A DNA stretch of 63,729 bases, filler included, from Dugesia japonica (Eukaryota): assembly GCA_001938525.1 (NCBI GenBank). It is 6 parts of 6 records of this genome, joined end to end, with 100 filler letters (N's around TTAATTAATTAA, not from the genome) between each part and the next. Parts side by side here need not be neighbours in the genome. Positions count along the whole stretch, not along the records: positions 17,837 to 30,767 come from MQRL01585236.1; 5 more parts are not named here. One strand, written 5' to 3'. The position numbers and the translations under genes were made by a program. Below the pieces are notes generated by a model that had not been told where the DNA came from, searched no databases, and was given only the letters and a program-made list of their open reading frames with translations. Of this stretch, positions 17,837 through 30,767 are shown piece by piece (positions within the stretch are counted from its first letter, which is position 1; every line of letters begins with the position of its first letter).

Positions 17837-17887
17837 CTTACATTTTACATTTTACATATCTAGGTATAATACCGTACCATGCAAAAT

Positions 17888-18410
17888 TAATAACTCCAAA
17901 TTCACTCAATATATCACATGATAATAACCCAAATTCACTCAATATATCACATGTTAATAACTCCAAATTCACTCAAATATAGCATAAAATAGCATATTTT
18001 ACATAATTAATAACTCACATTTATAAATTAACAATAAAATAACTTAAATTTAGCATCAAAAATAGCATCAAAAATTAAATTAGCAATAAATAGCATTTTT
18101 AATTTAGCATGAAAAATAAAATTAGCATCAAAAATAGCATCAAAAATTAAATTAGCAATAAATAGCATTTTTAATTTAGCAATAAAAATAGCATCAAAAA
18201 TAAAATTAGCAAAAAATAGCATTTTTGCATTTTTAATTTAGCAATAAAAATAGCATCAAAAATAAAATTAGCAAAAAATAGCATTTTTCCATTTTAAATT
18301 TAACATAAAAATAGCAATAAATTAAAATATAGCAAAAAATAGCATTTTGCCATTTTAAATTTAACATGAAAATAGCAATAAATTAAAATATAGCAAAAAA
18401 TAGCATTTTT
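17888..18410. repeat. Subterminal tandem repeat region
   Basis: ~33-nt unit taataactccaaattcactcaatatatcacatg x~3, followed by dense aaaatagcat/aaattagca repeats. Confidence 0.85.
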
Positions 18411-18430
18411 TGAAATTTTTCCTATAGAAA

Positions 18431-18781
18431 ATGAACACACAAGAATATAATGAAGAAAAAAATATATTAGAAAAATTTGCAATGTATCGTTTTAAAAATA
18501 TAAATTCAAGTAAAAAAGAAATATGTCAAGCAATTGGTGTAAAAGTTAGAATGTTTAATAAAATAGCAAAAGCAATGAATTATAAGTTTCCAAGAAAAAT
18601 ATATCCTTTGTTAAAATATAGTTATAACGAAGAAAATGATACATACATAAAAGATGAAAATGGAATTTATTTTTTTAATGTTAAAATTAAAGAGTATGAA
18701 TTATTAACAAAAAGAAAAAAACCAGATTTAAGTGAAAAAAGAAACACTGAGCATAAAAATAGTATAAAAGAAAAAAAATAA
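18431..18781 (+). CDS. Basic hypothetical protein with HTH-like segment
   Basis: SKKEICQAIGVKVRMFNKI resembles a helix-turn-helix. Confidence 0.6.
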   Translation: MNTQEYNEEKNILEKFAMYRFKNINSSKKEICQAIGVKVRMFNKIAKAMNYKFPRKIYPLLKYSYNEENDTYIKDENGIYFFNVKIKEYELLTKRKKPDLSEKRNTEHKNSIKEKK

Positions 18782-18801
18782 GTTTAACTGATAAAAGAAA
18801 C

Positions 18802-19143
18802 ATGGAACATAAAAAAACAAGAATATTTAATCCAATTTCTACAACTTTTGCAGGTGGAATTAAAAATAATGAGTTAAAACTAACATGTTCAGAAATTAAT
18901 ATTTTTGAGATACAACCAAGTGTTGAAGAAATTAAATATTCAAGATTCGCAAATGAAGATGAAGATGAAAGTGAAGATGAAAGTGAAGATGTAATTTCAA
19001 CTTCAACAAATAAATATGAACCGGTTAAAATTAATAAAGTAAATCCATTAGATGAGATAATTACTAATATTGATAATACAAAAAAAGATAATGTGTTTCA
19101 AAATCTATCTTTAAGAAATCGCTACGCTAACCTACAGACATGA
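18802..19143 (+). CDS. Hypothetical protein with acidic tract
   Basis: ORF overlapping the MCP start (ATGA). Confidence 0.6.
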   Translation: MEHKKTRIFNPISTTFAGGIKNNELKLTCSEINIFEIQPSVEEIKYSRFANEDEDESEDESEDVISTSTNKYEPVKINKVNPLDEIITNIDNTKKDNVFQNLSLRNRYANLQT

Positions 19144-28664: not shown

Positions 28665-28675
28665 TTTATAAAGAT

Positions 28676-28777
28676 TTAATATTTAACATTTAACATTTAA
28701 CATTTAACATTTAATATTTAACATTTATCATTTAACATTTAACATTTATCATTTAATATTTAACATTTAATATTTAA
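28676..28777. repeat. 7-nt tandem repeat (atttaac)
   Basis: About 14 degenerate copies. Confidence 0.85.
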
Positions 28778-28884
28778 AGAACAATAATATTTATTATAAT
28801 TTTCTTGATTTTTAATTAATTTTTTTAAATCTTCAATTCTTTTTTCAATAATTGTTATTTTCAGCATTTTATAAAGAATTAATA

Positions 28885-29439
28885 TTAAACATCATCTGAT
28901 TTTTGTGAATTATATGGATTTAGAAATATACCTTTTCCTTTCTTACTTATGTATGTTCCAGATTTAAAATTTTTAGTTAATAATTTAAATTTAGGATCAA
29001 TATTTTTTAAATACTTGTGGATTGCTGTTCCTTGATAAGGATTTAGAAATACACCTCCTGAACCTTGATATGGATCTCGAAATACTCCTGTTCCAGATGC
29101 TGTAGCTGATGATGATGTTGTTGTGTTGTTATTTGGTTGCTCTTTTATTAATTTTTGCTTTTGTAATTCAACTAATTCGATTTCTTTTTGTTTTTTAATT
29201 GCATCTTTTGAATTTGAAACTGTACCTGCAACATTAGATGCAATTCCTGTTGCACCCGCTAAAGCACCAATTACCCATGGAATAGCAGCTAAGAATGCAA
29301 ATCCACCTTCAGAATGTTTTTTTATAGCTTCATCTTTAACTTTTTTAGAAATATAATAATTTTTACCGTTGATCTTCACAGATTTACATTTTCTAGAATT
29401 TATAATTTTTTCTAATTCTTCTTCTGTTGCTTCTGACAT
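28885..29439 (-). CDS. Adenovirus pX/mu-like (cupiennin-like) core protein precursor
   Basis: EGG|FAFLAAIPWVIGALAGATGIAS resembles adenovirus pX GG|ILPLLIPLIAAAIGA.PGIAS; three G.F..PY repeats. Confidence 0.7.
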   Translation of the reverse strand: MSEATEEELEKIINSRKCKSVKINGKNYYISKKVKDEAIKKHSEGGFAFLAAIPWVIGALAGATGIASNVAGTVSNSKDAIKKQKEIELVELQKQKLIKEQPNNNTTTSSSATASGTGVFRDPYQGSGGVFLNPYQGTAIHKYLKNIDPKFKLLTKNFKSGTYISKKGKGIFLNPYNSQKSDDV

Positions 29440-29489
29440 TATGTGGCTTCTTCCTTTATGGTTTTATCGCTATTTTATAATATCATTAT

Positions 29490-30767
29490 TTAACAATTTA
29501 AATCCATTTTCATTTTATAAAAATTATTTATTGATTGTATTTTATTAAATGTTAAATTTTGTTCAGATAAACTATGACAATTTAATTTCCCATTTATTAA
29601 ATTTAATCTAAAATGTTTTAGTTTTTTTCCGTTATGTTCTAAACATTTAACACAATAAAATTTATTACCATGTGGCCATGTTCTAGCTCCATTATCTTCG
29701 ATTATTCTTTTATCACTATAACCTGTTAATGCAATTTTTATTTGTTCTGTTAATTGAATTTCGTGAAGATTGGATTTTAATGAATGATTTGTTCCATAGA
29801 TTATTTTCTTAGGATCTTCTAAAATTGAATCAAATTCAAACATGCCAATTGGATTGAACCCCTGAACACCTTTATGTTTTTTAATAAAATTATACCCCAT
29901 TTTTTCTTTATCTTCATATTCAATATATTCATATGCATAAGATTTTGGTTTCATGAATACACATTTAAGAATTTCAGCTGTGGGCTTTTCATCTTTCATT
30001 TGAAATAATTTATTTCCAGTTAATGTATTTAATTTTTCAAGGTTATCATTTCCAATTATTTCCACAAATACGCTGTCAGTATCTGAATAATGAATTTTAT
30101 AATTTTCTTGTCCAACTGTTGGTGCTAATTGCTTATATACAAAATTATACATTACTTCTTTTGCATATTCTAAGATAGTGAAACCTATATATGGAAATTT
30201 GTTATAAGAAAGATTTGATTTTGTTAAATGAACTGCTCCCATATTAGATTTGATTTCATCATTTAAAGTGAAAATTTTAGAACATAAATATGTTGGTTTT
30301 GCTGCTAGTTTTAATAATCGTTTGTCATTTCCTACAATTTCAACATTACATCGATTTCTGATATTTTCTAGTGTTTTACCATAGAATGAATTATTCATTA
30401 ATTTAAANNNNNNNNNNNNNNNNNNNNNNNNNNNNNNNNNNNNNNNNNNNNNNNNNNNNNNNNNNNNNNNNNNNNNNNNNNNTAACCATGTTGTTGTTGG
30501 CATTTTATATTTTGCATGTATCTGTTTTAATTTCATTCCTAATTCTAAATAGAGATCTAAAGTGGAGCCTAGGATAATATAATTTTTCTTATCAAATTGA
30601 TTCATTGTTAGTTTTATGTTATCTTTTGTTAATTTTCTATTAAATGATTTTTGATAATTACTTAACATGTCATCTGTAATAAGTATTCTGTCGGGTGCTA
30701 ATGGAAAATATTTAGTTTTATCATGAATTTTTGTTGGGTAATCTAGATCAACTTCATAGAGATAATT
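29490..30767 (-). CDS. polB: Protein-primed family B DNA polymerase, C-terminal part
   Basis: YEVDLDYP..IHD...FPLAP upstream of the ORF-track start, FKLMNNSFYGK, YSDTDS, KPKSY, KHKGV; open to the contig end. Confidence 0.96.
   Translation of the reverse strand, partial: NYLYEVDLDYPTKIHDKTKYFPLAPDRILITDDMLSNYQKSFNRKLTKDNIKLTMNQFDKKNYIILGSTLDLYLELGMKLKQIHAKYKMPTTTWLXXXXXXXXXXXXXXXXXXXXXXXXXFKLMNNSFYGKTLENIRNRCNVEIVGNDKRLLKLAAKPTYLCSKIFTLNDEIKSNMGAVHLTKSNLSYNKFPYIGFTILEYAKEVMYNFVYKQLAPTVGQENYKIHYSDTDSVFVEIIGNDNLEKLNTLTGNKLFQMKDEKPTAEILKCVFMKPKSYAYEYIEYEDKEKMGYNFIKKHKGVQGFNPIGMFEFDSILEDPKKIIYGTNHSLKSNLHEIQLTEQIKIALTGYSDKRIIEDNGARTWPHGNKFYCVKCLEHNGKKLKHFRLNLINGKLNCHSLSEQNLTFNKIQSINNFYKMKMDLNC

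What the first reader, a model, noticed from the sequence alone, without database searches (positions are those of the whole stretch)
17837..30767. Two diverged, nearly intact adintovirus-type genomes with no visible host junction
Seen: all host transposons here are riddled with stops, while the two Polintons keep long ORFs and catalytic residues. Element B fills its contig end to end with no flank, TSD or terminal AG repeat visible. Inference: recently active endogenous viruses of two lineages, or free virus co-sequenced with the host.
Basis: partly seen in the sequence, partly recalled or inferred. Interest (0 to 1): 0.7.

Follow-up and report, generated by a model that had tools for sequence, protein, structure and literature searches.

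The report
Decaying Polinton copies with phospholipase-integrase fusion
These are two incomplete, partly broken copies of a Polinton (Maverick), a virus-like element likely resident in many varied copies in the host genome rather than a free virus, and their one unusual trait is a phospholipase joined to the integrase, predicted to be packed in the virus particle and cut apart by the viral protease.

Summary
The window is six unplaced scaffolds joined by artificial linkers, so the missing host junction is an assembly effect. Both elements are Polintons, but neither is nearly intact. B (17,837-30,767) has capsid, integrase, ATPase, protease and pX-like genes. It keeps only the last 425 codons of PolB, and its penton gene is frameshifted. 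A (1-8,554) shows no PolB or penton, has an interrupted integrase and carries an inverted gene block. In two runs from different studies (2015, 2025), 34,373 and 33,118 short contigs lie on B, mostly 90-95% alike, while exact matches have depth 8-23. B is therefore likely one low-copy member of a large resident family, not a clonal free virus; no host depth control was obtained. A and B are sister lineages under past purifying selection (dN/dS about 0.24), while B's own differences look unselected (weak evidence). Both fuse a parvovirus-type PLA2 to the integrase. The fusion occurs in 96 of 120 listed homologues, flanked by GG/GxG motifs. My literature searches did not find it described; it likely makes a protease-cut particle protein for entry and integration.

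The parts
17737..17836 (.). Artificial scaffold linker N44-TTAATTAATTAA-N44 (also at 8555-8654, 30768-30867, 42984-43083, 52544-52643)
17837..18427 (.). Element B non-coding left part with 33-bp and about 61-bp tandem arrays. It starts in a short ACATTTT repeat like the arrays between genes; no AG terminus.
18428..19143 (+). B: two overlapping ORFs (117 and 126 aa) in different frames, likely one split gene of unknown function
   Evidence: no family above cut-off
19140..20480 (+). B: major capsid protein, double jelly roll, 446 aa, open
   Evidence: PF21738 E 2.9e-19; 9 homologues at 39-54%
20503..21933 (+). B: zinc finger + parvovirus-type PLA2 + rve integrase + SH3-like end in one 476-aa frame with no N; PLA2 loop YTGPG (93) and HD (127-128), integrase D246, D305/306, E339
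   Evidence: PF08398 E 8.3e-9 and PF00665 E 7.7e-13
22136..23002 (+). B: A32/FtsK-type packaging ATPase (stop-to-stop frame; two short N spots)
   Evidence: PF04665 E 6.7e-8
23149..23589 (-). B: 146-aa ORF, related to the C-terminal part of A's 319-aa ORF
   Evidence: E 4.6e-8
23978..24430 (-). B: ORF with a hydrophobic stretch (TM ORF), running into an 88-N gap; homologue in L019
24547..26355 (-). B: 602-aa ORF, coiled-coil-like N-half, no family found; 30% identical to A's 602-aa ORF
26356..26838 (-). B: adenain-like cysteine protease (THWVA, YFDSFG, QVQ, CGILC motifs)
   Evidence: PF00770 weak, E 0.048; homologues in L002, L010, L017, L019
26853..27661 (-). B: minor capsid (penton) gene, broken into two frames near 27,100
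   Evidence: three intact homologues hit frames -3 and -2; the L003 homologue's model matches minor capsid proteins, best E 6.8e-13
27783..28682 (-). B: 299-aa conserved ORF of unknown function, C-terminal motif shared with L003, L010, L018
28885..29463 (-). B: pX/Mu-like core protein ORF (GGFAFLAAIPWVIG stretch)
   Evidence: 38% to the L003 ORF, which hits Adeno_PX PF05829 at E 9e-4, below cut-off; B's own ORF has no such hit
29490..30767 (-). B: C-terminal 425 codons of protein-primed PolB, cut by the scaffold end (KLMNNSFYGK and YSDTDS motifs)
1..459 (+). A: C-terminal part of major capsid protein, cut by the window start
   Evidence: 57% to B
749..1498 (+). A: zinc finger + PLA2 + start of integrase in one frame, ending early
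   Evidence: PF08398 E 3.4e-8; 59% to B
1477..2026 (.). A: unrelated sequence with two N gaps interrupting the integrase; no GT donor visible; origin not found
2027..2551 (+). A: C-terminal part of integrase (B residues 307-476)
3243..4019 (+). A: packaging ATPase with a 181-N gap
   Evidence: 72% to B
4191..5150 (-). A: 319-aa ORF of unknown function
5678..8554 (+). A: protease, 602-aa ORF and TM ORF, inverted relative to B and cut by the scaffold end

Best explanation
A and B are partial, already damaged copies of one Polinton/Maverick lineage that is likely integrated in the host genome as a large and diverse family, and their ends are assembly breaks. Steps: (1) shown - both carry the Polinton gene set, with breaks in B's penton and A's integrase; (2) shown - runs from separate studies hold a wide spread of variants of B, with B's own letters at low depth; (3) inferred - the copies were inserted by the rve integrase and are inherited, the lineage evolved under purifying selection, and B has since gathered unselected changes, so it is a young fossil that cannot make particles alone; (4) shown - PLA2 and integrase are one frame, a layout shared by many relatives, with conserved GG/GxG motifs on both sides of the PLA2; (5) inferred - in working members this protein is packed in the particle and cut by the adenain-like protease, so the PLA2 would breach the endosome membrane and the integrase would arrive with the DNA.
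For: Linkers and mid-gene ends. Seven rows from 4 samples and 3 studies of one organism label hold 0.37-0.53 of the sampled words. laid 34,373 contigs from X1 and 33,118 from X3, of which 19,987 and 19,346 are only 90-95% alike. Of the 16 listed long pieces, 15 match B exactly, at depth 8.4-23.2, while summed depth reaches 58,000. At places such as 19,341, 19,986, 25,086 and 28,088 B's letter has depth about 9-11 in X1 against 250-11,500 for others. Several listed deletion joints recur at similar depth in both runs. A vs B: pooled dN/dS 0.24 over 943 codons, dS about 1.1. Third codon positions hold 411 of 827 A-B differences, but only 12 of the 40 listed places where B differs from the run contigs (p=0.009 against 0.50; p=0.74 against one third). 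Fusion: 96 of the 120 listed homologues (of 217) carry both PF00665 and PF08398. GG lies upstream of the PLA2 in 61 of 86 and GG/GxG between the domains in 79 of 86, against 0.4% and 0.3% in control windows. Precedent: mavirus particles contain the integrase MV02 and the cleaved hydrolase MV13, and its protease cuts GG|X or GX|G (PMC6048507, passages).
Against: No host junction or TSD was seen, and no host depth control was obtained, so 'single copy' is not calibrated. The tool warns that summed contig depth is no copy number. X1 may be the source sample. The codon-position test uses 40 of 221 places, chosen by the tool. In a hand-picked subset of 21 places seen in both runs the result is 7 of 21 (p=0.10). 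Assembly errors would also look unselected, and either break could be an assembly artefact. dS is near saturation. The motif counts come from related proteins, so they are not independent. A has GG upstream of its PLA2 but no GG/GxG directly after it. No cleavage, packaging or enzyme activity was tested.
Confidence: 0.8

Rival explanations
1. The scaffolds are mosaics or mis-joins of several similar copies. The breaks and the inversion are assembly artefacts, and intact, still active members stand behind them.
For: Both scaffolds hold several N gaps. A's interruption and inversion lie near gaps. No listed contig spans B. Capsid, integrase, ATPase and protease frames of B are open.
Against: B's penton break and the start of A's interruption lie in gap-free sequence. 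Exact-match contigs of 130-240 bases exist along B in two runs, so at least these parts of B are real alleles. RNA runs X14 and X17 gave 65 and 23 reads out of 13.6 and 11.6 million, 64 and 22 of them only partly aligned.
Confidence: 0.13
2. Free (episomal or virion) viruses co-sequenced with the host.
For: No flank, TIR or TSD is visible. The gene set is virion-type. Relatives sit on small metagenome contigs, and one of 15.6 kb has 123-bp inverted ends (L019).
Against: It recurs in three studies over 11 years under one organism label, with a near-identical variant cloud in the two runs laid. There is no single dominant sequence, B's own letters are at low depth, depth is not zero at the ends, and contigs run past the ends. 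The penton is frameshifted.
Confidence: 0.04
3. The elements belong to a symbiont, parasite or food organism regularly co-sequenced with the host.
For: The host is not identified here and no junction ties the scaffolds to host DNA. CpG o/e is 0.53 and 0.57 against 0.81-1.14 in the neighbouring scaffolds.
Against: GC (24-25%) is close to the neighbours' (27-28%). The counts and identity bands in runs ten years apart are nearly equal.
Confidence: 0.03

Closest known systems
Polintons/Mavericks, class Polintoviricetes (synonym adintoviruses; 10.64898/2026.06.19.733378, passages)
   Same: pPolB, rve integrase, adenain-like protease, A32 ATPase, double-jelly-roll capsid, minor capsid. A phospholipase is common in group 2. 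A mix of many fossils and few intact copies, up to hundreds per genome, is known in vertebrates (PMC8097293, passages).
   Different: TIRs and TSD are not in the scaffolds. The PLA2 is fused to the integrase. The integrase lacks the chromodomain seen in L019 and in some listed homologues.
Alpha adintoviruses, Mayetiola class (PMC8502044, Results part 1 of 3, passages, text of Supplementary Fig S2)
   Same: pfam03175-type PolB relatives, PLA2 gene, pX-like peptide, hexon, penton, adenain, FtsK, integrase. Variant reads reaching into host DNA were also reported there.
   Different: There the PLA2 is a separate PLA2X gene with a C-terminal pX domain. Here the PLA2 is joined to the integrase and the pX-like ORF stands alone. 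The OTU part of PolB is missing from the scaffold.
Spodoptera frugiperda Mavericks 1 and 2 (PMC5803895, passages)
   Same: PLA2 with catalytic residues, rve integrase, PolB relatives with endonuclease VII.
   Different: PLA2 (CAP) and integrase (with chromodomain) are separate ORFs.
IMG/VR contig L019 (15.6 kb, 123-bp inverted ends)
   Same: Same core gene set (TM ORF, capsid, penton, ATPase, PLA2, integrase, protease, 1,320-aa PolB); PLA2 44% identical to B's.
   Different: PLA2 and integrase are adjacent, overlapping but separate ORFs, a plausible stage before the fusion.
Mavirus virophage (PMC6048507, passages)
   Same: rve integrase and a membrane-type hydrolase both found in particles; protease cuts at GG|X or GX|G.
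   Different: Different capsid lineage; integrase and hydrolase are separate genes; the hydrolase is an alpha/beta hydrolase, not a parvovirus-type PLA2.

Membership tests
Polinton/Maverick (Polintoviricetes) | Protein-primed PolB | tested here: met
   C-terminal 425 codons in B; best homologue P0010 (PF03175) E 2.6e-27; 32% to L002 PolB. N-terminal part absent; none in the visible part of A.
Polinton/Maverick (Polintoviricetes) | Retrovirus-like rve integrase with D-D-E | tested here: met
   B: PF00665 E 7.7e-13; model matches foamy virus integrase at Z 20.3, rmsd 1.8, 162 aligned. A: present but interrupted.
Polinton/Maverick (Polintoviricetes) | [quoted passage not shown] | tested here: met
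   PF21738 E 2.9e-19; no solved-structure match by sequence profile.
Polinton/Maverick (Polintoviricetes) | [quoted passage not shown] | tested here: met
   Gene present in B but frameshifted; fold shown on the intact L003 homologue, not on B's pieces.
Polinton/Maverick (Polintoviricetes) | A32/FtsK packaging ATPase | tested here: met
   PF04665 E 6.7e-8 in B, 5.1e-4 in A.
Polinton/Maverick (Polintoviricetes) | Adenain-like cysteine protease | tested here: met
   Motifs; PF00770 only weak, E 0.03-0.05; homologues beside the same genes in L002, L010, L017, L019.
Polinton/Maverick (Polintoviricetes) | 100-1,500-bp terminal inverted repeats with AG-type ends | tested here: inconclusive
   None at the scaffold ends, but the ends are assembly breaks.
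Polinton/Maverick (Polintoviricetes) | 5-8-bp target-site duplication in host DNA | not testable with these tools
   No flank in the scaffolds; no whole genome held.
'Intact' Maverick (PMC8097293) | All core ORFs unbroken, TIRs and TSD present | tested here: not met
   B penton frameshifted and PolB partial; A integrase interrupted.
Alpha adintovirus (PMC8502044) | PolB of pfam03175 type with N-terminal OTU-like domain | tested here: inconclusive
   Relatives hit PF03175; the N-terminal part is not in the scaffold.
Alpha adintovirus (PMC8502044) | PLA2X: stand-alone PLA2 with C-terminal pX domain | tested here: not met
   The PLA2 continues into the integrase in both A and B; the pX-like ORF is separate.
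Alpha adintovirus (PMC8502044) | Animal host | not tested
   The organism label is coded; the neighbours show only an AT-rich eukaryote with gypsy, mariner, pogo-type and MULE relics.
pPolB2 class (PMC10748475) | HNH/endonuclease domain within PolB | tested here: inconclusive
   That part of B's PolB is missing; 3 of 4 homologues scanned and L019 carry PF02945, the L002 PolB showed no such hit.
Free linear virus genome | One dominant sequence with depth falling to zero at both ends | tested here: not met
   most contigs 90-95% alike, summed depth 157 and 17,139 in the end bins of X1, 20 and 19 contigs reach past an end. Contigs cannot show molecule ends, so raw or long reads are still needed.

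The most novel reading that the evidence does not exclude
A widespread, so far undescribed Polinton branch makes its entry phospholipase and its integrase as one polyprotein. The protein is loaded into the particle and released by the maturation protease, coupling membrane escape to immediate integration. This host carries an unusually large and diverse family of that branch, with some members still active, which would make it a tractable system for catching a Polinton particle.
Probability: 0.3. Interest if true: 0.65.

Novelty: new variant of a known kind. Interest (0 to 1): 0.33.

Why it matters
The finding as posed is ordinary: fragmentary Polinton copies on small unplaced scaffolds. Two by-products have some value. 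First, the conserved PLA2-integrase fusion with protease-type motifs gives a testable prediction that Polinton integrase travels in the particle, as shown for mavirus; PMC8097293 notes that Maverick particles had not been observed. Second, the host seems to hold a large, diverse family. That would be a good place to look for intact members and particles, and it explains why short-read assembly leaves them as flankless scaffolds.

Tried and rejected
No whole genome is held, so copies and junctions could not be searched there. No RNA holder was listed; this is no evidence on expression. IMG/VR scans with the capsid found nothing; the phage collection had no match. Rfam found 0 matches in the window. 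The Atlas gave no hit of 0.9 or more for the 602-aa ORF, so a fibre role is a guess and I do not claim it. The PLA2 part of the model matched a plant PLA2 only at Z 7.0 (rmsd 3.4, 93 aligned), too weak alone; the PLA2 call rests on Pfam and motifs. I rejected an intron as the cause of A's interruption (no GT at the junction); its source was not found by tblastx in the window or loci L001-L016. dN/dS 0.96 for the 602-aa pair was set aside because the alignment is only 30% identical. The tree is the quick version (the careful search did not finish) and left out A's N-terminal half and 54 of the 120 listed homologues. Earlier findings of the scan: three look-ups, nothing. Literature: searches and the passages read showed no description of a PLA2-integrase fusion. 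The library lacks most subscription papers and Repbase, and Supplementary Figs S1 and S3 and the drawn maps of Fig S2 of PMC8502044 could not be seen, so it may be in print. One search fetched an unrelated paper through a wrong id and was not used.
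Full report
Layout. The window is not one stretch of chromosome. Five identical linkers (44 N, TTAATTAATTAA, 44 N) divide it into six pieces: 1-8,554, 8,655-17,736, 17,837-30,767, 30,868-42,983, 43,084-52,543 and 52,644-63,729. The finding's coordinates are exactly the third scaffold (element B). The second element (A) is the first piece, cut on the left by the window start. The absence of a host flank therefore means only that the assembly stopped there. B's right end lies inside an open PolB frame. Its left end starts in an ACATTTT repeat like those between its genes.

Gene content. B encodes on the plus strand a double-jelly-roll capsid protein (PF21738, E 2.9e-19), a 476-aa protein with PLA2 (PF08398, E 8.3e-9) and rve integrase (PF00665, E 7.7e-13) domains, and an A32 ATPase (E 6.7e-8). 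On the minus strand it has a 146-aa ORF, a hydrophobic ORF, a 602-aa ORF, an adenain-like protease, a penton, a 299-aa ORF, a pX-like ORF and the last 425 codons of PolB. The penton call rests on relatives. Three single-ORF homologues of 253-257 aa hit B in two frames, and the model of the L003 homologue (pLDDT 69.8) matches minor capsid proteins of giant viruses, adomavirus LO5 and MELD virus penton (best E 6.8e-13). A has the same genes at 31-72% protein identity where present. This is a Polinton/Maverick; the names Maverick, Polinton, adintovirus and Polintoviricetes are treated as synonyms in 10.64898/2026.06.19.733378 (passages).

How intact. Stop-free frames of at least 150 residues cover 70% of A and 72% of B, against 0-11% of the other scaffolds. 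The five transposon relics I tested are broken. That contrast is real, but neither element is nearly intact. B lacks roughly 900-1,000 codons of PolB (relatives have 1,320 and at least 1,403 aa) and shows no terminal repeat. Its penton is frameshifted near 27,100, and its first gene appears split near 18,770. A shows no PolB and no penton. Its integrase is interrupted between B residues 249 and 307 by about 550 bp of other sequence and gaps, and its protease-602aa-TM block is inverted. By the definition in PMC8097293 (passages) neither is intact.

Endogenous or free. Of 24 runs listed, 12 hold part of B. Seven rows from four samples and three studies (2014, 2015, 2025) of one organism label hold 0.37-0.53 of the sampled words; the best holder may be the source sample. 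I laid four runs on B. X1 (2015) gave 34,373 contigs (4,503 at 99% or more, 9,883 at 95-99%, 19,987 at 90-95%) and X3 (2025) gave 33,118 (4,325, 9,447, 19,346). Fifteen of the 16 long pieces listed match B exactly, at depth 8.4-23.2, while the summed depth per bin in X1 runs from 157 to 57,990. At several places B's letter has depth about 9-11 against hundreds to thousands for other letters. Twenty and 19 contigs reach past an end of B. A clonal virus infection would give one dominant sequence; a stable cloud of variants in samples ten years apart fits a large inherited family of which B is one low-copy member. Two oligo-dT RNA runs gave 65 and 23 reads out of 13.6 and 11.6 million read. Of these, 64 and 22 aligned only in part and 3 and 1 were at 99% or more, so B itself shows next to no transcript in those samples; some relatives may be weakly transcribed.

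Selection and age. Between A and B, dN/dS is 0.13-0.34 per gene and 0.24 pooled over 943 codons, with dS about 1.1, near saturation. The lineage was therefore under purifying selection after the split. Half of the A-B differences (411 of 827) are at third codon positions. Of the 40 listed places (of 221) where B differs from the run contigs, only 12 are (p=0.009 against 0.50, p=0.74 against one third); in a stricter hand-picked subset it is 7 of 21 (p=0.10). This suggests unselected change since insertion, or assembly error, and is weak evidence. In a quick maximum-likelihood tree of 68 integrase rows, A and B are sisters (SH-aLRT 99). They are two sub-families of one lineage rather than unrelated invasions, as far as the sampled homologues can show.

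The PLA2-integrase fusion. In B the zinc finger, PLA2 and integrase lie in one frame with no N; in A the frame also runs from the PLA2 into the integrase. The model (pLDDT 75.6, pTM 0.46) shows separate domains joined by a low-confidence linker at residues 179-210. The core matches retroviral integrases (Z 20.3, rmsd 1.8, 162 aligned), and the best viral match is a MELD virus integrase. The fusion is no accident of this host: 96 of the 120 listed homologues carry both domains, one from a sea spider, and the PLA2 loop and HD motif are conserved in the alignment. L003 and L017 carry it beside related capsid genes, while L019 has the two as adjacent separate ORFs. In 86 of 120 homologues with all marker motifs, GG precedes the PLA2 in 61 and GG or GxG follows it in 79, against 0.4% and 0.3% of control windows (related sequences, not independent). 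Mavirus protease cuts GG|X and GX|G, and mavirus particles hold both the integrase and a cleaved hydrolase (PMC6048507, passages). Parvovirus PLA2 acts in endosomal escape, and the same role has been proposed for Polinton lipases (PMC4642659 and PMC8502044, passages). I infer that the fusion is a particle-borne polyprotein cut at maturation. This is untested, and A lacks a clear downstream motif. In the papers read, PLA2 is a separate gene (PLA2X in PMC8502044, CAP in PMC5803895). Six searches found no description of the fusion, but the library is incomplete and some supplementary figures could not be seen.

Papers seen. PMC8502044: passages, Results part 1 of 3, text of one supplement part. 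PMC10748475, PMC3671162, PMC5803895, PMC6431247, PMC8097293, PMC11161782, PMC6048507, PMC11296320, PMC4642659 and 10.64898/2026.06.19.733378: passages only. All others: search listings only. The readings of the protease, Walker and PolB motifs are from recalled family knowledge applied to the translations.

Verdict. These are most likely (0.8) young but damaged endogenous Polinton copies from a large resident family. Assembly mosaics hiding intact copies (0.13), free virus (0.04) and a co-sequenced organism (0.03) are the rivals. The endogenous state is ordinary. The fused PLA2-integrase makes it a variant of a known kind with one testable prediction. Interest 0.33.

Noticed in passing
window 1-8554 and 17837-30767: CpG observed/expected is 0.53 and 0.57 in the two elements against 0.81-1.14 in the four other scaffolds. 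It may reflect methylation-driven loss in this family or its own composition; unexplained.
   Followed up: partly
window 4030-4158, 5668-5737, 6295-6343, 22996-23111, 27656-27789, 28674-28777: Short tandem arrays of related 7-, 13- or 14-base units (AAATGTT/ATTTAAC type) sit between genes in both elements, often where orientation changes. They may favour inversions such as A's, and they would break short-read assemblies.
   Followed up: partly
window 38023-38910 (-): 295-aa stop-free frame in a host scaffold, with only a weak Pfam hit (DUF4904, E 0.011, below cut-off).
   Followed up: partly
window 45425-45684 and 50264-50525; also 45333-45423 and 51099-51187: Inverted copies of about 260 bp (95% alike) flank the gypsy relic, with a second shorter inverted pair; possibly a non-autonomous DNA transposon.
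   Followed up: no
window 54108-54269 and 56754-56912: Direct repeats of about 160 bp (93% alike) around a gypsy relic, likely its LTRs.
   Followed up: no
window 28778-28885 (-): A short stretch resembling the first 36 residues of the 299-aa ORF lies just upstream of it, a local duplication.
   Followed up: no
window 27337-27480: Other copies in both runs skip about 140 bases of B's penton region, so this part varies in length within the family.
   Followed up: no
L019 1-15597: Apparently complete 15.6-kb relative with 123-bp inverted ends and separate, overlapping PLA2 and integrase ORFs.
   Followed up: partly
L016 1560-3146: In this relative the packaging ATPase frame runs on into a sequence resembling the 299-aa-type ORF, giving a 528-aa frame (resemblance read by eye); another possible fusion in the lineage.
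   Followed up: no
P0125: An NCBI protein of the sea spider Nymphon striatum carries both PF08398 and PF00665, so the fusion also occurs in a named animal genome.
   Followed up: no
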